Origin: Kitasatospora sp. NPDC096147
Lineage (GTDB): Bacteria > Actinomycetota > Actinomycetes > Streptomycetales > Streptomycetaceae
Direction: 5' to 3'
Assembly: GCF_044763225.1 (NCBI RefSeq)
Contig: NZ_JBIWFX010000002.1
Location: 487,080 to 551,079, forward strand
DNA length: 64,000 bases
Shown: in pieces, positions 25,526-41,012 of the stretch
Layout: the number at the start of each line of letters is the position of its first letter
Position numbering within the stretch: the stretch's first letter is position 1
Notes under the pieces: generated by a model
Database searches by the model: none
The model's input: only the letters and a program-made list of their open reading frames with translations
What the model was told of the DNA's origin: nothing
Translations under genes and position numbers: made by a program

Positions 25526-25944
25526 GTCGACAGGTCTCCTCACGGCTTGCGTCACGGCGTGCGACCGGCGGCTCGCGCTCTCTCGGGAGACTGGAGTATC
25601 TCATTCTTCTTTGCACGGCGGACGACCCGCCCAGTATCGTGGGCGGCGGTTGGTGTCGGGGCCCCAGGCTGTGGCATCATCACACTCGCACGGAGTGCAC
25701 CGGCTGCGCCGGTGTGGTCCTTGCGGAGGAGGCTTCGCCTAGTCCGGTCTATGGCGCCGCACTGCTAATGCGGTTTCGGGGTTATTCCTGATCGAGGGTT
25801 CAAATCCCTCAGCCTCCGCTCAACCGGGAGCCCCGGCGGTCACTGACCGTCGGGGCTCCTGTGCGTCGCACCCCCGGGGCAATCGATTTCGCCCCAGGTC
25901 GCGGGTCATGTAATGTTGTCCCCGCAACGCCCCGTCAGGGGCAA

Positions 25945-26020
25945 GCGCTCATAGCTCAACGGATAGAGCACTTGACTACGGATCAAGAGGTTGCAGGTTC
26001 GAATCCTGCTGAGCGCACCA
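25945..26020 (+). tRNA. tRNA-Arg (anticodon ACG), 76 nt with encoded CCA
   Basis: Cloverleaf folded by hand. Acceptor is gcgctca/tgagcgc. D-stem is gctc/gagc. Anticodon stem is cttga/tcaag with loop ctACGga. T-arm is gcagg-ttcgaat-cctgc. Confidence 0.85.
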
Positions 26021-26059
26021 CGCACCACCGCTTCGCAGCCCGTGAGTTGGGCCGCGCAA

Positions 26060-26135
26060 GCGCTCATAGCTCAACGGATAGAGCACTTGACTACGGATCA
26101 AGAGGTTGCAGGTTCGAATCCTGCTGAGCGCACCA
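26060..26135 (+). tRNA. tRNA-Arg (anticodon ACG), identical tandem second copy
   Basis: Identical 76-nt sequence, 39 bp downstream of copy 1. Confidence 0.85.
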
Positions 26136-35257: not shown

Positions 35258-36142
35258 GTGACCCAGTCGATCGAGCAAGCCCGCAGCCTCGGACTGGCCG
35301 GTGCCTCCAACGCCCGCGACCTCGGCGGCTACCGCACCGAGGACGGCTCGCTGGTCCGCTCCGGCGTGGCGCTGCGCGCCGACGCGCTGCACCGGCTGAC
35401 CGAGCAGGACGGCGCCGCGCTCCTGGCCGCGGGGGTGCGCCGGGTGGTCGACCTGCGCAGCTTCGGCGAGGTCCGGGAGGCCGGCGCGGACCGGATCCCC
35501 GGCCTGCCGGTGGCCGCCCTGCCCGAGCTGGAGCAGGCCGAGCTGTCCGCCACCGCGCTCACCGTGGACGGCGAGCTGACGCTCCACCACCTGCCGGTCT
35601 TCGCCGCCGACTTCGACGTCTACGTGGCCCTGCGCGACGCGCTGGCCGACCGCGACCCGGCCCGCCAGCGGGAGCTGCTCGGCGACGGCCGGGCGGCCGG
35701 CATCATGATCGGCCTCTACCGCTGGTTCGTCACCTCCCCGGTGGCCCGCGAGCGGTTCGCCGAGGTGCTCCGGCTGCTGGCCGCACCGGACGGAGTGCCG
35801 CTGCTCTTCCACTGCTCGGCCGGCAAGGACCGCACCGGCTGGGTGGCCGCCCTCGCCCTCACCGCGCTCGGCGTGGACCGCGAGACGGTCTACCAGGACT
35901 ACCTGCTCACCAACGAGCGCTCCGCCAAGGTGGTCGACCACCTGATGGAGAGCTTCGGCACCTCCGGCCTGATGGCCGACCCCTCGCTGCTGCTGCCGGT
36001 GCTCCGGGCCGATCGCGCCTTCCTGGACGCCGCCTTCGCCGAGGTCGAGGCCGGCTGGGACGACTTCGGGCACTTCTGGCGGGACGGCCTCGGCCTGGAC
36101 GACGCCGTGCTGGCCGGGCTGCGCGCCAACCTGCTGGCCTGA
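35258..36142 (+). CDS. Protein-tyrosine phosphatase (Y_phosphatase3-like, CX5R P-loop)
   Basis: The HCSAGKDRTG P-loop is present. Confidence 0.75.
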   Translation: MTQSIEQARSLGLAGASNARDLGGYRTEDGSLVRSGVALRADALHRLTEQDGAALLAAGVRRVVDLRSFGEVREAGADRIPGLPVAALPELEQAELSATALTVDGELTLHHLPVFAADFDVYVALRDALADRDPARQRELLGDGRAAGIMIGLYRWFVTSPVARERFAEVLRLLAAPDGVPLLFHCSAGKDRTGWVAALALTALGVDRETVYQDYLLTNERSAKVVDHLMESFGTSGLMADPSLLLPVLRADRAFLDAAFAEVEAGWDDFGHFWRDGLGLDDAVLAGLRANLLA

Positions 36143-36185: not shown

Positions 36186-37223
36186 CTACTCGCTGATCAG
36201 CCCGTTCCGCAGCTGGGTCAGGGTCTTGGTGAGCAGCCGCGAGACGTGCATCTGCGAGATGCCGATCTCCTCGCCGATCTGAGACTGCGTCAGCCCGCCG
36301 AAGAACCGGAGCATGATGATCCGGCGCTCGCGCGGTGGCAGCTTGGCCAGCAGTGGTTTGAGCGACTCGCGGTACTCGACGCCCTCCAGCGCCAAGTCCT
36401 CGTAGCCCAGCCGGTCGGCCAGCGGCCCGTCGCCGTCCTCCTCGCCGGGTGTGGAGTCCAGCGAGGAGGCGGTGTACGCGTTCCCCACCGCCAGGCCCTC
36501 GACCACGTCCTCCTCGCTGACGCCGAGGAAGACCGCGAGCTCGGCCACGGTGGGCGAGCGGTCCAGCTTCTGCGAGAGCTCGTCGCCGGCCTTGGTCAGC
36601 GCCAGCCGCAGCTCCTGGAGCCGCCGGGGCACCCGGACCGACCAGCTGGTGTCCCGGAAGAAGCGCTTGATCTCGCCGACCACGGTCGGCATCGCGAAGG
36701 TCGGGAACTCCACCCCGCGCTCCGGGTCGAAGCGGTCGATCGCCTTGATCAGGCCGATGGTGCCGACCTGGACGATGTCCTCCATCGGCTCGTTCCGGCT
36801 GCGGAAGCGGGCGGAGGCGTACCTGACAAGCGGAAGGTTGAGCTCGATCAGGGTGTCTCGGACGTAGGTGTGCTCGTCGCTCCCTGCCTCCAGCCCGGCC
36901 AGCCGGGCGAACAGCGAGCGGGACAGCGTCCGGGTGTCCAGGCCCTTCTCGGGAGCCCTCGCGGCCGCCTGTCCGGGGTCGTCCTGTCCGGCGGTGTCCT
37001 GCGCGGGGGCGTCCTGCCCGGTCGGCTCCCCGGCGGTCGGGTGGGCCGGTGCCGGGTGGGCCTGGGCCGGGTGGGCCTGGGTCGGGTGGGCCTGGGTCGG
37101 CTGGGTGGGGATGCCCACCACGACCGTCTCCGGCCCGGGTGCCGTCCCCGGCTGCGGCACTGCCACCGACGCGAGCGTGACGGCCGTGCCGTGGCCCTCC
37201 GCGCTGCCCAGTTCTGCGGACAT
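36186..37223 (-). CDS. Group 3 (SigB/SigF-type) RNA polymerase sigma factor with Pro/Thr/Gln-rich N-terminal extension
   Basis: Region 2 is [19 protein letters not shown] and region 4 is [30 protein letters not shown]. The N-terminus carries a QAHP-type repeat. Confidence 0.8.
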   Translation of the reverse strand: MSAELGSAEGHGTAVTLASVAVPQPGTAPGPETVVVGIPTQPTQAHPTQAHPAQAHPAPAHPTAGEPTGQDAPAQDTAGQDDPGQAAARAPEKGLDTRTLSRSLFARLAGLEAGSDEHTYVRDTLIELNLPLVRYASARFRSRNEPMEDIVQVGTIGLIKAIDRFDPERGVEFPTFAMPTVVGEIKRFFRDTSWSVRVPRRLQELRLALTKAGDELSQKLDRSPTVAELAVFLGVSEEDVVEGLAVGNAYTASSLDSTPGEEDGDGPLADRLGYEDLALEGVEYRESLKPLLAKLPPRERRIIMLRFFGGLTQSQIGEEIGISQMHVSRLLTKTLTQLRNGLISE

Positions 37224-37381
37224 GCTCCACCCCCTCGTGACCGACTGTACAACGGGCACTACCCAGCGACAGTTCCCGCCGTCGGACTACCCCTCCAGCT
37301 CCATACCGGCCCAGGAGCCCCGGCAAACCCGAACGTCGCAAGATGTCACGCCGCAGTGACGCACGGCTACCCACCCGGACG

Positions 37382-38314
37382 TCACTCCTCCCAGGAGTTC
37401 CCGGTCCGCAGGCGGGTCAGGATTCTGGACAGTAGCCGGGAGACGTGCATCTGCGACATACCGAGTTCGGTGGAGATCTGGGACTGCGTCAGGTTCGCGA
37501 AGAACCGGAGCATGATGATCCGCCGCTCCCGCTCGGGCAGTTGCACCAGCAGGTGCCGCACCATGTCCCGGTGCTCCACGTCGGCCAGCGCCGAGTCCTC
37601 GTAGCCCAGCCGGTCCAGCAGGGCCAGTCCGCCCTCGTGCTCCTGCGCCGCCTCCAGCGAGGCCGCGTTGTACGCCCGCCCGGCCGCCAGGCAGGCCCGG
37701 ACGTCCTCCTCCGGGATCCGCAGGTTGGCCGCGATCTCCGGCACCTTGGGCGAGCGCCCGTGAGTGACCGTCAACTCCTCCATCGCGCCGCTGACCTGGA
37801 CCCAGAGCTCCTGGAGCCGGCGCGGCACGTGCATGGTCCGGACGTTGTCCCGGAAGTAGCGCTTGATCTCGCCCAGGATGGTCGGCAGCGCGTAGGTCGG
37901 GAACTGCACGCCCCGGGTCGGGTCGAAGCGGTCGATCGCGTTGATCAGGCCGATGGTGCCGACCTGGACGATGTCCTCCATCGGCTCGTTCCGGCTGCGG
38001 AAGCGGGTCGCCGCGTAGCGCACCAGCGGGATGTTCGCCTCGATCAGCGCCGCCCGCACCCGGTCCCGCTCCGGCGCTCCCGGCGGCAGCTCGGCCAGCC
38101 GCTCGAAGAGCACCCGGGTCAGCGTCCGGACGTCGACCTGGCCCCGGCCGGTGCCGCCGCGCACCTCCACCGGCCCGCCCTCCGCCACGGGGGGCTCCTG
38201 CTCGACGGCCTCCGGCGCACTGCTGTCCTGACTGTCCTGCGTCCGCACGGCCACGCCACCCCTCCCACGTCCTGCGGCCCGTCCCACCGGTCGTGGTCCG
38301 CTGCCCGTCATCAC
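37382..38314 (-). CDS. Group 3 (SigB/SigF-type) sigma factor, tandem paralogue
   Basis: Same domain order. It shares a near-identical ~75-nt tract with the neighbouring sigma gene (37935-38015 vs 36733-36810). Confidence 0.8.
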
Positions 38315-38497
38315 CTCGCGCCAGGTCCGGCAAAAACGGTCATAGCATCACAAGTCGTGCACATCGTGAGCAAGCACCCGTCTTAGGCGTGTTGGCGGAT
38401 GGTCGGGAGAGCTGTCGGGGTGCGGAACGGCCCCCTGGCACGGTGCGTGCCAGGGGGCCGAAGGGTACTTCCGGTACGACCTTTCGGTCGGACGGGC

Positions 38498-38791
38498 TCA
38501 GACCTCGATGTCCGCGATCACCCAGGTGGCGAACTCACGCCACTGTCCGGCGGCTGCCTGATGGGCCGGGTGGCCCAGGTACGCGGCCAGCGCCTCGCGG
38601 TCCTCCACCAGGCTGTTGATCGCGTAGTCGTAGGCGATGTCCCGCTCGGTGGTGTTCCAGCCGCACTCCCACTCGCGCAGCTCGGAGATCAGCCCGCCGA
38701 GCTCCTCGAACGCCTTCGCGCCGGCCACCGCACGCTCGTCGTCCTTGCCGACGCCGTCGTTGAGCCTGAACAGGACCAGATGCCGAATCAC
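38498..38791 (-). CDS. Dabb (stress-responsive alpha/beta-barrel) family protein
   Basis: GTG start at 38791. The 97-aa sequence is (M)IRHLVLFRLNDG...HPAHQAAAGQWREFATWVIADIEV. Confidence 0.6.
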   Translation of the reverse strand: MIRHLVLFRLNDGVGKDDERAVAGAKAFEELGGLISELREWECGWNTTERDIAYDYAINSLVEDREALAAYLGHPAHQAAAGQWREFATWVIADIEV

Positions 38792-38874
38792 GATGCCGCT
38801 CCCAGCGGTCGAGGGTGTGTGCTGCTTGCCCGCCCACCGTAGCCGCCGCCCGTCCGGCCCCGTCCGCGCGTCCG

Positions 38875-39015
38875 CTAGCTGACCAGCCCGGTCATGAACG
38901 TCCCGATCGCCTTGGCCGCGTCCGAGATCCCGACGAAGCCCGACTGCACCAGCTCGGCCGCCCTGGTCGGGGAGGTGATCACCGTGTAGATCACGAAGAT
39001 CAGCAGCAGCCACAT
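38875..39015 (-). CDS. Possible micro-ORF (46 aa) encoding a small hydrophobic peptide
   Basis: MWLLLIFVIYTVITSPTRAAELVQSGFVGISDAAKAIGTFMTGLVS. Not in the ORF track because it is under 60 aa. No other support. Confidence 0.2.
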   Translation of the reverse strand: MWLLLIFVIYTVITSPTRAAELVQSGFVGISDAAKAIGTFMTGLVS

Positions 39016-39316
39016 CCCGATCCTCTTCGCCTGCGCCACCCTGCTCGCCGCCTCCCGCTAGCCCGCCCGGCCCAATCCCCGAGCAGCTTATCGACCGGAC
39101 GGCCCATCAGGTCGGCACCCCGTTCACCCTCCGGGACGAAGGTCCCCCCAAGACGGGCCCTTCTCCGCTCGCCCGCCCCCACCCCGTCCAGCAGGATGGA
39201 ACACGTACCGAGGGATCTGGCAGGAATCCGCGGTACGAGGACCGGAGCTCCCCGCTGTGGGACCGGGCGTCGTGGCTTCCCCCCGACACGACCCCGGTTG
39301 TGGGACCTCCGCCCGG

Positions 39317-39347
39317 GGCAGCCGTCCGTCCCCCCGGGACGGCTGCC
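39317..39347 (-). terminator. 11-bp stem-loop downstream of the HNH gene
   Basis: ggcagccgtcc-gtccccccg-ggacggctgcc. Confidence 0.45.
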
Positions 39348-39385
39348 CCCTCAACAGGCCTCGCACTCACCCCGGGCCACGGTGG

Positions 39386-40291
39386 TCAAAGCCCCGAGTG
39401 CGGGGCCTCTTGCATGCCCGCGCCCAGGCGTTCCAGGGCGGCGTCCTTCTCCGCGACGGCTGCTGCCAGCACCTCCAGGAGCCGGTGCCGGTGCCGGCCC
39501 CGGCCCTTCAGGGCATGGCAGTTGGGGCAGAGCGCGATCATCAGCTCCGGGACGTCCTCGCCGGTCGCCGCCAGCCCGTTGAGGTGGTCCACCTCCAGCA
39601 GGGGCGCCCCGCGGTCCGTCAGTTCGTCCGGGTGGCCGAGGCAGCCCGGGTTCTCACACCTGCCGCCCGAGCGCAGCAGCACGGCCCGCCGGGCGGACCG
39701 CGTCCGCTTCGGGCGCTCACCGCCGACCGGTGCGCTGCGGTCCTCGCCCCGCCGCTCGGCTGAGGCGTGGGCCGAACGCTTGAGGCTCCGGTAGCGCGCT
39801 GCCGTCTGCTCGGGGGACGACGGGGACACCACCACCTCGTCCGCCGGCCCCGGGCCGTGCCAGCCGATGCGTGCCGCCACCCCGGCCGGCACCGGATCGA
39901 GGTGGCGCTCCAGCAGGGACTCGGTGATCTCGTCGGCCAGTTGACGGTCCGCCAGTAGCAGGGCGTGGTCCTCCGGGGGCAGCCCGGCGAGCGGGTCCGG
40001 CGCGTTCAAGGCGCTCACCAAGGGCCGCCGGCCGCCGCTGGTGAGCGGCAGCGTGCCGGCACCCTCGATCTCCCAGAGGCCGTTGAGGTGCAGCACCCAG
40101 AACGGGTAGAGCGCTCCGTCCGACCGCCCGTACTCGGCCAGCAGGGCGTCCGTCTCCTCCCGGATGACCGACCAGTGCTGGAGCCTCGGCCGTCCTCGCA
40201 GGGCCTGGTCGATCGCCCAGAGCAGCAGAAGCGGCCGGTGCGGGTGCTGGATCGACAGGCCGTCGATGCGGGACGTCAGCGAAGAGGGCAT
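39386..40291 (-). CDS. HNH-nuclease domain protein with uncharacterised N-terminal domain (possible modification-dependent/type IV restriction-like enzyme)
   Basis: The C-terminus has HNH with a Cys4 zinc knuckle: C..C, a His (HPDEL; catalytic residue not assigned), HLNG (Asn) and CPNCH. The N-terminal ~190 aa (LLLLWAIDQAL...YPFWVLHLNGLWEI) was not recognised. It starts 72 bp downstream of the tRNA-Ser 3' end. Confidence 0.6.
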   Translation of the reverse strand: MPSSLTSRIDGLSIQHPHRPLLLLWAIDQALRGRPRLQHWSVIREETDALLAEYGRSDGALYPFWVLHLNGLWEIEGAGTLPLTSGGRRPLVSALNAPDPLAGLPPEDHALLLADRQLADEITESLLERHLDPVPAGVAARIGWHGPGPADEVVVSPSSPEQTAARYRSLKRSAHASAERRGEDRSAPVGGERPKRTRSARRAVLLRSGGRCENPGCLGHPDELTDRGAPLLEVDHLNGLAATGEDVPELMIALCPNCHALKGRGRHRHRLLEVLAAAVAEKDAALERLGAGMQEAPHSGL

Positions 40292-40322
40292 CGGTGCACG
40301 CCTCTCGGAAGTGGGGAACGCC

Positions 40323-40355
40323 GAAGGGCCCCGATCCGGTGGATCGGGGCCCTTC
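40323..40355 (-). terminator. 15-bp perfect hairpin immediately downstream of tRNA-Ser
   Basis: gaagggccccgatcc-ggt-ggatcggggcccttc. Confidence 0.6.
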
Positions 40356-40362
40356 GGGCTTC

Positions 40363-40452
40363 TGGCGGTAGCGGTGGGATTCGAACCCACGGTGAAGTTG
40401 CCCCCACACACGCTTTCGAGGCGTGCTCCTTTGGCCGCTCGGACACGCTACC
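40363..40452 (-). tRNA. tRNA-Ser (anticodon CGA), 90 nt with long variable arm and encoded CCA
   Basis: The reverse complement folds as GGTAGCG-TG-TCCGAGCGGCCAAAGGA-GCACGCC-TCGAAAG-GCGTG... with a long variable arm. The T-arm is GTGGGTTCGAATCCCAC, followed by CGCTACC-G-CCA. Confidence 0.85.
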
Positions 40453-40496
40453 GAGACGAGACTCTACCGGACGGGGCGGGCTCGGACGAAATCCGT

Positions 40497-41012
40497 TCAG
40501 CGGTGGGTGTCGAACCAGGTGCGGAGCTGGTCGGCGCAGGCGGTGGCGAGGACGCCGGGGATGACCTCGGGGCGGTGGTTGAGGCGGCGGTCGCGGACGA
40601 CGTCGAAGAGGGAGCCGGCGGCGCCGGCCTTGTCGTCGTGGGCGCCGTAGACGACGCGGTCGAGGCGGGAGAGGACGATGGCGCCGGCGCACATGGTGCA
40701 GGGTTCGAGGGTGACCACCAGTGTGCAGCCGCTGAGGCGCCACTCGCCGAGGGCGGCGGCGGCCTGCCGGATGGCGACCACCTCGGCGTGGCCGGTGGGG
40801 TCGCCGAGGGCCTCGCGGACGTTGTGGCCGCGGCCGAGGACGGTGCCGTCGGGGCCGAGCACGAGCGCCCCGACCGGTACGTCCCCGGTGGCGGTGGCGA
40901 GTGCGGCCTCGTCGATGGCGAGGCGCATCGCGTCCGTCCAGCGGTCGCGTACCGGGTCGGGGCGTACGGGGGCCGGGAGCGGGGCGATCTGCATGGGACC
41001 AGTGTCGGGCAT
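40497..41012 (-). CDS. tadA: tRNA-specific adenosine deaminase TadA
   Basis: The zinc-binding deaminase motifs HAEVVAI and TLEPCTMCAGAI are present. The start may be MQIAPLP at 40994 or the ATG at 41012. Confidence 0.85.
   Translation of the reverse strand: MPDTGPMQIAPLPAPVRPDPVRDRWTDAMRLAIDEAALATATGDVPVGALVLGPDGTVLGRGHNVREALGDPTGHAEVVAIRQAAAALGEWRLSGCTLVVTLEPCTMCAGAIVLSRLDRVVYGAHDDKAGAAGSLFDVVRDRRLNHRPEVIPGVLATACADQLRTWFDTHR

What the first reader, a model, noticed from the sequence alone, without database searches (positions are those of the whole stretch)
38498..40452. Small islet at the 3' side of tRNA-Ser(CGA): HNH nuclease with unknown N-terminal domain, micro-ORF and Dabb protein
- Immediately downstream of the tRNA-Ser 3' end and its terminator sit an HNH-nuclease protein with an unrecognised ~190-aa N-terminal domain, a ~400-bp mostly non-coding stretch, a 46-codon hydrophobic micro-ORF and a Dabb protein.
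- Beyond them the tadA-upp core block resumes on the other side.
- tRNA 3' ends are classic insertion sites. HNH proteins with novel sensor domains are frequently modification-dependent restriction or other defence nucleases.
- No integrase is present, so this may be a decayed island retaining a defence gene.
Basis: partly seen in the sequence, partly recalled or inferred. Interest (0 to 1): 0.55.

Follow-up and report, generated by a model that had tools for sequence, protein, structure and literature searches.

The report
Phosphorothioate-sensing HNH nuclease cassette beside tRNA-Ser
The "unknown" N-terminal domain is the already described sulfur-binding domain that reads phosphorothioate-modified DNA, so this is a new, shortened member of the known ScoMcrA-type restriction nucleases, present as a strain-specific 0.9-kb insert next to a tRNA gene; the small ORF and the Dabb gene beside it are ordinary core genes.

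Summary
The features are real, but the islet is smaller than proposed and its key domain is known. The window matches Kitasatospora sp. NPDC096147.

**The nuclease.** The gene (39386-40291, minus strand, 301 aa) matches the ScoMcrA structure 5ZMM (E 4e-58). Residues 18-145 are the sulfur-binding domain (5ZMO, E 6e-27; the model superposes at 1.5 A). Residues 152-279 are the HNH module. The SRA domain of its closest relatives is missing. Sulfur-pocket, base-contact, zinc and catalytic residues are kept. It is most likely a phosphorothioate-dependent Type IV restriction nuclease.

**The insert.** None of 80 related tadA/tRNA-Ser loci carries it. A relative with 93% identical flanks fixes the insert at 39421-40316. 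That is the ORF alone, without promoter, integrase or tRNA repeat. Its last 11 codons and stop lie in flank DNA. The micro-ORF and Dabb gene are core.

**The site.** This is a proven insertion hot spot. Other genomes hold integrases, integrase remnants, partial tRNA repeats and unrelated cargo there.

**The "non-coding stretch".** It is a conserved, covarying structured element upstream of the micro-ORF, with no Rfam family. This is the most novel item.

Enzyme activity and expression are inferred, not shown.

The parts
40363..40452 (-). tRNA-Ser (anticodon CGA), directly downstream of tadA. It is a conserved anchor of the locus.
   Evidence: ARAGORN and Rfam tRNA at 53 bits. The same tRNA follows tadA within 400 nt in 79 of 80 related loci.
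40316..40362 (-). Native GC-rich hairpin after the tRNA, a terminator or processing stem without a U tract. The insert starts at its 3' foot.
   Evidence: Inverted repeat I2, 22-nt arms, 91% complementary. It is 100% identical over 44 nt in the close relative L083. Homology with L083 ends at 40317.
39421..40316 (-). Strain-specific insert of 896 bp. It holds only the RBS (GAGAGG, 40301-40306) and the nuclease ORF without its last 11 codons.
   Evidence: blastn against L083 (Kitasatospora sp. NPDC001664), whose flanks are 93% identical. Homology blocks are 43000-40317 and 39420-38198. L083 has an unrelated 341 bp in between. Two-piece alignments to six other Kitasatospora loci give 845-890 bp.
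39386..40291 (-). SBD-HNH gene, 301 aa: a predicted phosphorothioate-dependent Type IV restriction endonuclease, an SRA-less derivative of the ScoMcrA type.
   Evidence: PDB phmmer 5zmm E 4e-58. PADLOC mREase_IV 6e-59. Precomputed PF26340 DNA-SBD_ScoMcrA. AlphaFold2 pLDDT 86.9. Foldseek 5zmm E 8e-19. GC3 0.92.
39854..40291 (-). Sulfur-binding domain (residues 1-146). The pocket is H18, R19, Y62, P63 and V66. The base-contact loop is S85-G-G-R88-R89.
   Evidence: 5zmo E 6e-27 over residues 18-145. The model superposes on 5zmo_A at rmsd 1.5 A over 154 columns, TM 0.86. Residue map. Residue roles from PMC6224610.
39452..39838 (-). HNH module (residues 152-280). It has a Cys4 zinc site (C212, C217, C255, C258), D235-H236 and H259. 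L250 stands at the ScoMcrA N522 position.
   Evidence: It aligns to ScoMcrA 422-551. Zinc and His residues are invariant in 120 homologs. The N522 position is variable in them (Q, T, V, A, F, S). The Pfam HNH match is weak, 19 bits against a 21.4 cut-off.
39386..39420 (-). Last 11 codons and the TGA stop of the nuclease ORF, encoded by ancestral flank DNA. The stop overlaps the conserved GACCACC block.
   Evidence: This stretch is 93-96% identical to L083, which has no nuclease gene. Homology of the protein to ScoMcrA ends near residue 280.
39084..39387 (-). Conserved structured non-coding element upstream of the micro-ORF. The core is 39188-39351. Hairpins lie at about 39315-39349 and 39269-39293 (both with GGGGGG loops), about 39204-39237 (invariant UCCUGCC loop) and about 39139-39162. 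A CCAUCCUGC box lies at 39191-39199. The strand is probable, not proven.
   Evidence: nhmmer. The covariance model R1 hits 18 of 81 sources plus 10 of 10 further Kitasatospora loci. 84.6% of cells are paired, against 50% or less when partners are slid. 34 of 48 pairs show compensatory change, and 0 of 500 shuffles reach this. No Rfam family matches.
38875..39039 (-). Core small hydrophobic protein gene (54 aa from GTG, 46 aa from the internal ATG). It is not part of the insert.
   Evidence: tblastn finds it downstream of tRNA-Ser in 63 of 80 loci. Its 90%-identity cluster has 31 Kitasatospora members. GC3 is 1.00. No Pfam, NCBIfam or PADLOC family matches.
38498..38791 (-). Core Dabb (stress-responsive alpha/beta barrel) gene, 97 aa. 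It is not part of the insert.
   Evidence: Pfam Dabb 1.7e-19. It follows the micro-ORF in 60 of 80 loci. An exact-sequence look-up names it 'Dabb family protein'.
38428..38460 (-). Perfect 15-bp hairpin downstream of the Dabb stop, probably the terminator of the micro-ORF/Dabb unit.
   Evidence: Inverted repeat I9, 15-nt arms, 100% complementary, 3-nt loop. The simple terminator scan does not call it because there is no T run.
40497..41012 (-). tadA (tRNA adenosine deaminase), the core gene upstream of the tRNA.
   Evidence: Pfam MafB19-deam 2e-33 and dCMP_cyt_deam_1 5e-28. It was used as the anchor for the 80 related loci.

Best explanation
An 896-bp strain-specific cassette sits between the terminator hairpin of tRNA-Ser(CGA) and the conserved leader of a core micro-ORF/Dabb/sigma-factor cluster. 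It encodes a 301-aa two-domain enzyme.

**What the enzyme is.** The N-terminal domain is a sulfur-binding domain (SBD). The C-terminal part is a zinc-finger HNH nuclease. By descent it belongs to the ScoMcrA-like SBD-SRA-HNH clade and has lost the SRA (methylcytosine-reading) domain. By architecture it therefore equals the known SBD-HNH enzymes such as SprMcrA and EcoWI.

**Proposed mechanism.**
- The SBD pocket (H18, R19, Y62, P63, V66) captures the Rp sulfur of a phosphorothioate link in incoming DNA made by a dnd-type system.
- The S-G-G-R88-R89 loop reads the neighbouring bases, most likely the GpsGCC context read by ScoMcrA.
- The HNH domains, probably as a dimer, cut nearby.
- The cell thereby restricts phosphorothioate-marked plasmids, phages or integrative elements. 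The host itself should carry no matching modification.

**Shown here:** domain identity, fold, conserved residues, loss of SRA, presence/absence polymorphism and exact insert borders.

**Inferred:** nuclease activity, sequence preference, and expression. The insert has no room for a promoter, so transcription would come by read-through from tadA/tRNA-Ser.

**Origin.** The cassette is most likely the survivor of a larger element, or was moved in by recombination at a site that other genomes show to be an insertion hot spot.

**Confidence.** The stated confidence covers the whole statement. Identity as an SBD-HNH protein is about 0.95. Being an active, expressed enzyme is about 0.55-0.6.
For: **Identity**
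- phmmer against PDB gives ScoMcrA 5zmm E 4e-58, its SBD 5zmo E 6e-27, SprMcrA SBD 7cc9 E 6e-9 and EcoKMcrA E 8e-7.
- PADLOC mREase_IV scores 6e-59.
- NCBIfam 'phosphorothioated DNA-binding restriction endonuclease' matches residues 17-134 at E 1.6e-15.
- The precomputed Pfam domain is PF26340 DNA-SBD_ScoMcrA.

**Fold**
- The AlphaFold2 model has pLDDT 86.9.
- Its SBD superposes on 5zmo_A at 1.5 A with TM 0.86.

**Residues**
- All sulfur-pocket, base-contact (R190/R191-equivalent), zinc and His residues are kept. Their roles come from PMC6224610.

**Descent**
- The SBD is 48% identical to SBDs of 41 SBD-SRA-HNH proteins and 27% to those of 78 SRA-less ones.
- In a neighbour-joining tree it nests inside the SRA-bearing clade.

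**Coding signal**
- GC3 is 0.92-0.94 in frame through both domains.

**Insert status**
- It is absent from 80 loci and 10 more.
- The borders come from L083, whose flanks are 93% identical.

**Family function**
- ScoMcrA, SprMcrA, EcoWI and others cut phosphorothioate DNA and restrict dnd+ plasmids (PMC3009677, PMC6224610, PMC7461809, PMC7470945).
Against: - No activity or expression data exist.
- The protein is a singleton, with no relative above about 55% identity among 15 billion proteins. Purifying selection therefore cannot be measured.
- The insert carries no promoter (and the border positions).
- Its native 3' end and stop are gone.
- In ScoMcrA the SRA domain contributes to dimer contacts (PMC6224610).
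- A168 is Val here, and the bulkier A168I mutant lost 51% of binding.
- The Asn of the H-N-H motif (ScoMcrA N522) is Leu. That position varies across the whole family.
- Long open frames arise easily by chance in 72% GC DNA.
- Whether the host lacks dnd genes was not checked.
Confidence: 0.7

Rival explanations
1. The ORF is an inert relic. It would be the last piece of a decayed island, still open by chance, no longer expressed or no longer a working enzyme after losing its SRA domain, its own C-terminus and its promoter.
For: - The insert holds nothing but the ORF, and the last 11 codons and stop come from flank DNA.
- No promoter-like site is found.
- It is a singleton.
- The SRA loss removes a dimer interface of ScoMcrA.
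- Other genomes show decayed remnants at the same place. L091 keeps an integrase fragment, and L057 and L068 keep frameshifted ones.
- Long chance ORFs are common in this GC-rich DNA.
Against: - There is no frameshift or stop in 301 codons.
- GC3 is 0.92-0.94 in the correct frame in both domains.
- Every conserved zinc, catalytic and sulfur-pocket residue is intact.
- The SRA loss is in frame and leaves two confidently folded domains.
- The borders spare the RBS and the whole catalytic module, as expected if function was selected.
- Natural SBD-HNH enzymes without SRA are active dimers (PMC7461809).
Confidence: 0.25
2. One reading: a defence nuclease with a new, uncharacterised sensor domain (SRA, EVE or YTH-like) on a small island that also includes the micro-ORF and the Dabb gene.
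For: The local Pfam-A copy finds nothing in the N-terminal half, so from sequence alone the domain looks orphan.
Against: - The domain matches solved SBD structures by sequence (E 6e-27) and by fold (1.5 A).
- It carries PF26340 in newer Pfam.
- SRA is absent rather than present.
- The micro-ORF and Dabb gene are core genes in 63 and 60 of 80 loci.
Confidence: 0.02
3. The cassette is a selfish, homing-type HNH gene, or another site-specific mobile unit, that targets the foot of the tRNA terminator hairpin. That would explain why two 93%-identical genomes hold different cassettes with identical borders.
For: - The window and L083 share exactly the same left border (..CGGCGTT|) and right border (|CGGGCAYG..), yet hold unrelated inserts of 896 and 341 bp.
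- The insert is gene-sized and lacks an integrase.
Against: - The protein family is a modification-dependent restriction family, not a homing family.
- The L083 cassette has no nuclease and no Pfam family.
- No terminal repeats or target duplication are present.
- No second copy of the gene exists anywhere.
- Replacement of a variable segment by homologous recombination through the conserved flanks explains shared borders equally well.
Confidence: 0.03

Closest known systems
ScoMcrA (Streptomyces coelicolor SCO4631; PDB 5ZMM, 5ZMN, 5ZMO), a Type IV restriction endonuclease with head-SBD-SRA-HNH architecture
   Same: - It is the best sequence and structure match (E 4e-58; SBD at 1.5 A).
- The sulfur pocket (H, R, Y, P) is the same.
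- The R190/R191 base-contact arginines are the same.
- The Cys4 zinc site and the D-H...H catalytic residues are the same.
- The window protein falls in the same clade by tree.
   Different: - It lacks the head domain and the whole SRA domain (ScoMcrA about 248-421), so it should not read methylcytosine.
- A168 is Val, R188 is Gly and N522 is Leu.
- It is 301 aa against 562 aa.
- Its C-terminal 11 residues come from flank DNA.
SprMcrA (S. pristinaespiralis; SBD structures 7CC9, 7CCD, 7CCJ) and EcoWI-type SBD-HNH enzymes (Ksp11411I, Bsp305I and others)
   Same: - They share the two-domain SBD-HNH plan.
- They show phosphorothioate-dependent cutting near the modified site.
- They are dimers without an SRA domain.
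- They restrict dnd+ plasmids (PMC7461809, PMC7470945).
   Different: - The SBD is only about 27% identical. Their pocket uses Y/Q where this protein has H/R, and their base-contact loop differs.
- The NCBIfam model for the EcoWI type is matched far below its cut-off, 57 against 180 bits.
- This protein reached the same architecture by a separate route, loss of SRA.
EcoKMcrA (PDB 6GHC)
   Same: It shares a homologous HNH module (E 8e-7; Foldseek 4e-4) and is also a modification-dependent Type IV enzyme.
   Different: EcoKMcrA has an unrelated N-terminal reader, which recognises methyl- and hydroxymethylcytosine rather than sulfur.
tRNA-linked genomic islands integrated by tyrosine recombinases
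   Same: - They use the same kind of site and show presence/absence polymorphism.
- Other Streptomycetaceae have integrases, integrase remnants and partial tRNA repeats at this very tRNA.
   Different: - In the window there is no integrase, no att repeat and no composition shift.
- The insert lies beyond the native tRNA terminator rather than at the tRNA 3' end.
6C RNA (Rfam RF01066), compared with the conserved element at 39084-39387
   Same: If read on the plus strand, two GC-rich hairpins have loops of six or more C. A weak Rfam match of 36 bits lies at 39315-39411 on the plus strand.
   Different: - The match is below the gathering score of 47.
- It uses a window-specific second stem.
- No match at all appears in relatives that carry the same element.
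- The element is far longer (about 300 nt, at least 5 helices) and is tied to the micro-ORF.

Membership tests
Sulfur-binding domain (DNA-SBD_ScoMcrA, PF26340) | Significant sequence match to characterised SBDs | tested here: met
   5zmo E 6e-27 and 7cc9 E 6e-9. PF26340 is precomputed for the identical protein.
Sulfur-binding domain (DNA-SBD_ScoMcrA, PF26340) | SBD fold | tested here: met
   The AlphaFold2 model (pLDDT 86.9) superposes on 5zmo_A at rmsd 1.5 A over 154 columns, TM 0.86.
Sulfur-binding domain (DNA-SBD_ScoMcrA, PF26340) | Sulfur-pocket residues H116, R117 (or K), Y164, P165 and a small residue at 168 | tested here: met
   H18, R19, Y62 and P63 are present. Position 168 is Val (V66), as in 6 of 120 homologs. 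A168I lowered binding by half, so the effect of Val is uncertain.
Sulfur-binding domain (DNA-SBD_ScoMcrA, PF26340) | Binding of Rp-phosphorothioate DNA | not testable with these tools
   This needs EMSA or fluorescence polarisation with Rp-PT oligonucleotides.
HNH (beta-beta-alpha-metal) nuclease of the McrA type | Cys4 zinc site, catalytic D-H and the final metal-binding H | tested here: met
   C212, C217, C255, C258, D235, H236 and H259 are present, and all are invariant in 120 homologs. The module aligns to ScoMcrA 422-551.
HNH (beta-beta-alpha-metal) nuclease of the McrA type | Central Asn of the H-N-H motif (ScoMcrA N522) | tested here: not met
   L250 stands at this position. The position is Q, T, V, A, F or S in the 120 homologs, so it does not define this clade. 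The Pfam HNH score of 19 bits is below the 21.4 cut-off.
ScoMcrA-type architecture (SBD-SRA-HNH) | SRA domain (PF26348) between the SBD and HNH | tested here: not met
   About 170 aa are absent in alignment A2. An SRA probe hits 41 homologs but not this protein. It is therefore not filed as a ScoMcrA orthologue.
SBD-HNH phosphorothioate-dependent restriction endonucleases (SprMcrA and EcoWI kind) | Two-domain SBD plus HNH architecture without SRA | tested here: met
   SBD is residues 1-146, a short linker follows, and the HNH module is residues 152-280.
SBD-HNH phosphorothioate-dependent restriction endonucleases (SprMcrA and EcoWI kind) | NCBIfam NF045808 full-length match above the cut-off | tested here: not met
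   It scores 57 bits against a cut-off of 180, and only the SBD part matches. The protein is of the same kind but a different lineage.
SBD-HNH phosphorothioate-dependent restriction endonucleases (SprMcrA and EcoWI kind) | PT-dependent cleavage, restriction of dnd+ DNA, and a host without a matching dnd system | not tested
Integrase-mediated tRNA-linked genomic island | Presence/absence polymorphism at a tRNA 3' side | tested here: met
   The gene is absent in 80 plus 10 related loci. 14 loci have other inserts of 0.9-6.9 kb. At least 10 have larger islands.
Integrase-mediated tRNA-linked genomic island | Integrase gene and a direct repeat of the tRNA 3' end bounding the insert | tested here: not met
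   No integrase lies in the insert. No repeat of 12 nt or more was found, and none within 3 mismatches of a 26-mer. Both features are present in other genomes at this site.
6C RNA (RF01066), for the conserved element | Covariance-model score at or above the gathering threshold | tested here: not met
   It scores 36.2 against 47 bits in the window only. No match appears in L003-L009, L011 or L034 at gathering, or in L007 at E of 5 or less.

The most novel reading that the evidence does not exclude
Two linked readings remain open.

1. The roughly 300-nt covarying element upstream of the micro-ORF could be a new class of structured leader RNA. It would control a conserved small-membrane-protein/Dabb/SigB-like sigma stress module in Kitasatospora and some Streptomyces.

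2. The junction between the tRNA-Ser terminator and this leader could be a precise, recurrent landing slot. Promoterless cargo would be captured there and expressed by read-through. Seen cargo includes this minimal SRA-less phosphorothioate-sensing nuclease and, elsewhere, NACHT, reverse-transcriptase and PIN genes. The nuclease would then be an active, naturally minimised GpsGCC-specific enzyme rather than a relic.
Probability: 0.2. Interest if true: 0.6.

Novelty: new member of a known kind. Interest (0 to 1): 0.3.

Why it matters
**For the nuclease: modest.** It adds a naturally SRA-deleted member to the ScoMcrA clade. That is a natural experiment on whether the sulfur reader and HNH alone are enough in this lineage. 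It is also a compact candidate reagent for mapping GpsGCC phosphorothioate sites.

**For genome biology.** The comparison defines to the base a hypervariable slot beside tRNA-Ser(CGA) in Streptomycetaceae. The slot collects integrative elements and defence-type cargo.

**The less expected by-product.** The conserved structured element is in no Rfam family. If it regulates the adjacent stress module, it would be a new actinobacterial cis-regulatory RNA.

Tried and rejected
1. **Pfam-A (local copy) on the N-terminal half.** It found nothing, because that copy predates PF26340. PDB sequence search and precomputed Pfam resolved the domain.
2. **att-type repeat of the tRNA 3' end.** I tried repeat finder, an exact-substring scan of the whole downstream window, and a 26-mer with 3 mismatches. 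All found none. The 18-nt tRNA/tadA similarity (D7) lies on the wrong side and is taken as chance.
3. **Sigma-70 promoter and intrinsic-terminator scan of 38300-40600.** It found no sites, which is uninformative for actinomycete promoters.
4. **6C RNA for the gap.** The match is a weak 36 bits in the window only and is not reproduced in relatives, so I rejected it.
5. **Strand of the conserved element.** RNAalifold energies are equal for the two strands (-125.68 against -125.70). G-U against A-C counts lean only mildly to the micro-ORF strand. The strand is left open.
6. **Shine-Dalgarno sequestration by the CCUGCC boxes.** It is seen in the minimum-energy folds of 3 of 9 leaders only, so it is not claimed.
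7. **First gap-tolerant global alignment for the insert borders.** It fragmented the gap. I replaced it with a two-piece dynamic programme and then with the 93%-identical relative.
8. **Donor search.** No close relative exists in plasmids (best 47-50% over the HNH part) and there is no match in phages.
9. **Remnant of the nuclease in the L083 cassette.** There is none (tblastn E above 0.01), and no Pfam family matches its 84-aa ORF.


Full report
**1. What is in the sequence**

The region is 70-77% GC. The nuclease protein, the micro-ORF product and the Dabb protein are each identical to proteins of Kitasatospora sp. NPDC096147.

All the following lie on the minus strand:

| Feature | Coordinates | Evidence |
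|---|---|---|
| tadA | 40497-41012 | |
| tRNA-Ser(cga) | 40363-40452 | |
| GC-rich hairpin, 22-nt arms | 40316-40362 | |
| HNH-type ORF | 39386-40291 | |
| Gene-free gap, 346 bp | 39040-39385 | |
| Small hydrophobic ORF | 38875-39039 | |
| Dabb gene | 38498-38791 | Pfam 1.7e-19, |
| Perfect 15-bp hairpin | 38428-38460 | |
| Two SigB-like sigma genes | 37382-38314, 36186-37259 | |

- The ATG of the HNH-type ORF is at 40289-40291, giving 301 aa.
- The longest frame, reaching 40411, overlaps the tRNA and is not the gene.
- The micro-ORF is 54 codons from GTG and 46 from the inner ATG.

**2. The 'unknown' domain is known**

- A sequence search of all PDB chains gives ScoMcrA (5ZMM) at E 4e-58 in two stretches.
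- Residues 18-145 align to the sulfur-binding domain (5ZMO, E 6e-27; SprMcrA SBD 7CC9, E 6e-9).
- Residues 152-279 align to the ScoMcrA HNH module (422-551).
- PADLOC calls it a Type IV modification-dependent enzyme (6e-59).
- NCBIfam's 'phosphorothioated DNA-binding restriction endonuclease' matches the SBD part but stays below its cut-off (57 against 180 bits).
- The identical database protein carries PF26340, named DNA-SBD_ScoMcrA. The local Pfam copy lacks that model, which explains the blank.
- An AlphaFold2 model from a 52-sequence alignment has pLDDT 86.9. Its N-terminal domain superposes on 5ZMO_A at 1.5 A, TM 0.86.

**3. Residues, with roles from PMC6224610**

| Role | ScoMcrA | This protein |
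|---|---|---|
| Sulfur pocket | H116, R117, Y164, P165, A168 | H18, R19, Y62, P63, V66 |
| Base-contact loop | S187-R-G-R190-R191 | S85-G-G-R88-R89 |
| Zinc site | C484, C489, C527, C530 | C212, C217, C255, C258 |
| Catalytic | D507-H508, H531 | D235-H236, H259 |
| Central Asn | N522 | L250 |

- Both arginines that read GGCC are kept.
- The zinc and catalytic residues are invariant in 120 homologs.
- The N522 position is Q, T, V, A, F or S in those homologs, so it does not define this clade.
- V66 is a caution. A168I halved binding in ScoMcrA.

**4. Descent**

- Among the 120 best homologs, 41 have SBD-SRA-HNH architecture, 73 have head-SBD-HNH and 5 have SBD-HNH.
- The window SBD is 48% identical on average to the first group and 27% to the others.
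- In a neighbour-joining tree on SBD plus HNH columns it sits inside the SRA-bearing clade, as its only SRA-less member.
- About 170 residues, matching ScoMcrA about 248-421, are replaced by a six-residue linker.
- It is therefore a new SRA-less derivative of the ScoMcrA lineage.
- By architecture it converges on the characterised SBD-HNH enzymes SprMcrA and EcoWI. These cut phosphorothioate DNA and restrict dnd+ plasmids (PMC7461809, PMC7470945).
- No relative exceeds about 55% identity, and the 90% cluster has one member.

**5. Insert or core?**

I fetched 80 loci around tadA from one genome per species.

- 79 of them have tRNA-Ser(cga) right after tadA.
- 63 have the micro-ORF and 60 the Dabb gene downstream.
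- None has an SBD-HNH homolog.
- The tRNA-to-micro-ORF distance is 600 nt or less in 49 loci and about 450-490 nt in Kitasatospora. It is 1324 nt in the window.

Kitasatospora sp. NPDC001664 (L083) is 93% identical in both flanks.

- Homology runs 43000-40317 and 39420-38198.
- Between these blocks the window has 896 bp and L083 has an unrelated 341 bp.
- The insert is therefore 39421-40316.
- It starts at the foot of the native tRNA hairpin, 25 nt before the ATG. It contains the GAGAGG ribosome-binding site.
- It ends inside the ORF. The last 11 codons and the TGA lie in flank DNA, and the stop overlaps the conserved GACCACC block.
- GC3 is 0.92-0.94 in frame, and composition does not stand out.
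- There is no integrase and no repeat of the tRNA end.
- No consensus promoter is found.
- No close relative exists on plasmids or phages.

**6. The site is a hot spot**

- Fourteen of the 80 loci have inserts of 0.9-6.9 kb at this place. At least ten have larger ones.
- Cargo is unrelated from genome to genome:
  - NACHT-HEAT and DUF7507 in L001.
  - Peptidoglycan-binding and HTH proteins.
  - Usp and phosphofructokinase.
  - DUF2127, beta-propeller/RTX, FG-GAP and PIN proteins.
  - A crystallin-like protein.
  - A reverse transcriptase in L092.
- L078 and L053 have full tyrosine integrases abutting the tRNA (Pfam Phage_integrase 1e-18 and 4e-22).
- L091, a Kitasatospora, keeps a 3' integrase fragment (2.5e-7). 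L057 and L068 keep frameshifted ones.
- L014, L057, L067 and L068 have exact partial tRNA copies of 16-24 nt at the far end of their inserts.
- Six further Kitasatospora loci have an empty slot.

The 'decayed island' idea fits the site. For the window copy, however, the route of entry is unresolved.

- The insert lies beyond the native terminator.
- It shares exact borders with a different cassette in L083.
- This points to replacement by recombination through conserved flanks, or to trimming of a larger element under selection for the ORF.

**7. The gap is a conserved structured element**

- The stretch 39084-39387 aligns with the tRNA/micro-ORF spacer of all Kitasatospora loci and of ten Streptomyces and Mangrovactinospora loci.
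- A covariance model of the core (167 positions, 48 pairs) finds it in 18 of 81 sources and in 10 of 10 further Kitasatospora loci.
- It always lies upstream of the micro-ORF and stays with it when islands intervene.
- On 18 sequences, 84.6% of cells pair, against 50% or less when partners are slid.
- 34 of 48 pairs show compensatory changes, and none of 500 shuffles reach the observed values.
- Two hairpins carry GGGGGG loops. A third has an invariant UCCUGCC loop, followed by a CCAUCCUGC box.
- No Rfam family matches. The weak 6C match is window-specific and rejected.
- The strand is not settled. G-U counts mildly favour the micro-ORF strand.
- A role as a translational leader is a hypothesis only.

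**8. Verdict**

- The nuclease is a new member of a known kind. It is a phosphorothioate-dependent Type IV restriction enzyme by strong homology, with activity and expression still to be shown.
- A relic is the main rival.
- The micro-ORF and Dabb gene are core.
- The most novel material is peripheral to the finding: the base-precise variable slot and the uncatalogued structured element.

Noticed in passing
window 39084-39387 (-), core 39188-39351: A conserved element of about 300 nt with at least 5 covarying helices lies upstream of the micro-ORF. Two hairpins have GGGGGG loops, one has an invariant UCCUGCC loop, and a CCAUCCUGC box follows. It occurs in all Kitasatospora loci and about 10 Streptomyces or Mangrovactinospora loci. 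No Rfam family matches. It is a candidate new leader or small RNA, and its strand is unsettled.
   Followed up: partly
window 39315-39411 (+): A weak Rfam 6C RNA match (36.2 bits, gathering 47, E 0.016) overlaps the nuclease stop. Relatives with the same element do not reproduce it, so I judged it a chance match to a C-rich-loop hairpin.
   Followed up: yes
L083:4030-4370 against window 39421-40316: A genome with 93% identical flanks holds a different, unrelated 341-bp cassette with exactly the same borders. Its 84-aa ORF has no Pfam family. This suggests a base-precise variable slot at the foot of the tRNA terminator.
   Followed up: partly
L092:6198-8182, L001:12497-16207, L079:13290-13730: Other occupants of the same slot look defence-like. 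L092 has a 476-aa reverse transcriptase (RVT_1) with a 188-aa partner. L001 has a 1236-aa NACHT-HEAT protein. L079 has a PIN-domain protein. None was analysed further.
   Followed up: no
L091:8231-8641 (-), L078:9706-11055 (-), L053:9666-11270 (-): Tyrosine integrase genes (L078, L053) or a C-terminal remnant (L091) abut the 3' end of tRNA-Ser(cga). L014, L057, L067 and L068 have partial tRNA copies of 16-24 nt at the far end of their inserts.
   Followed up: yes
window 36186-37259 (-) and 37382-38314 (-): Two tandem SigB-like sigma-factor genes are about 73% identical at the DNA level over their cores (cross-hits). The first has a low-complexity Pro/Thr/Gln/Ala/His-rich N-terminal extension (PTQAHPTQAHPAQAHPAPAHP). 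A tyrosine-phosphatase gene (35258-36142, +) follows. The cluster is conserved with the micro-ORF and Dabb gene.
   Followed up: no
window 40370-40387 and 40499-40516: An 18-nt stretch of the tRNA T-arm/acceptor region recurs at 89% identity in the last codons of tadA, on the 5' side of the tRNA. It does not bound the insert and is probably chance.
   Followed up: partly
window 38428-38460: A perfect 15-bp hairpin with a 3-nt loop lies 38 nt downstream of the Dabb stop. It is probably the terminator of the micro-ORF/Dabb unit, and it has no T run.
   Followed up: no
window 25728-26135 (+): A tRNA cluster holds tRNA-Ser(gct) and two tRNA-Arg(acg) copies. A similar Arg/Ser pair appears in locus L013. 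I did not examine it.
   Followed up: no
residue 250 of the nuclease (window 39542-39544): The Asn that names the H-N-H motif (ScoMcrA N522) is not conserved in this whole family. It is Q in 67 of 120 homologs, otherwise T, V, A, F or S, and Leu here. The His and Cys residues are invariant.
   Followed up: partly
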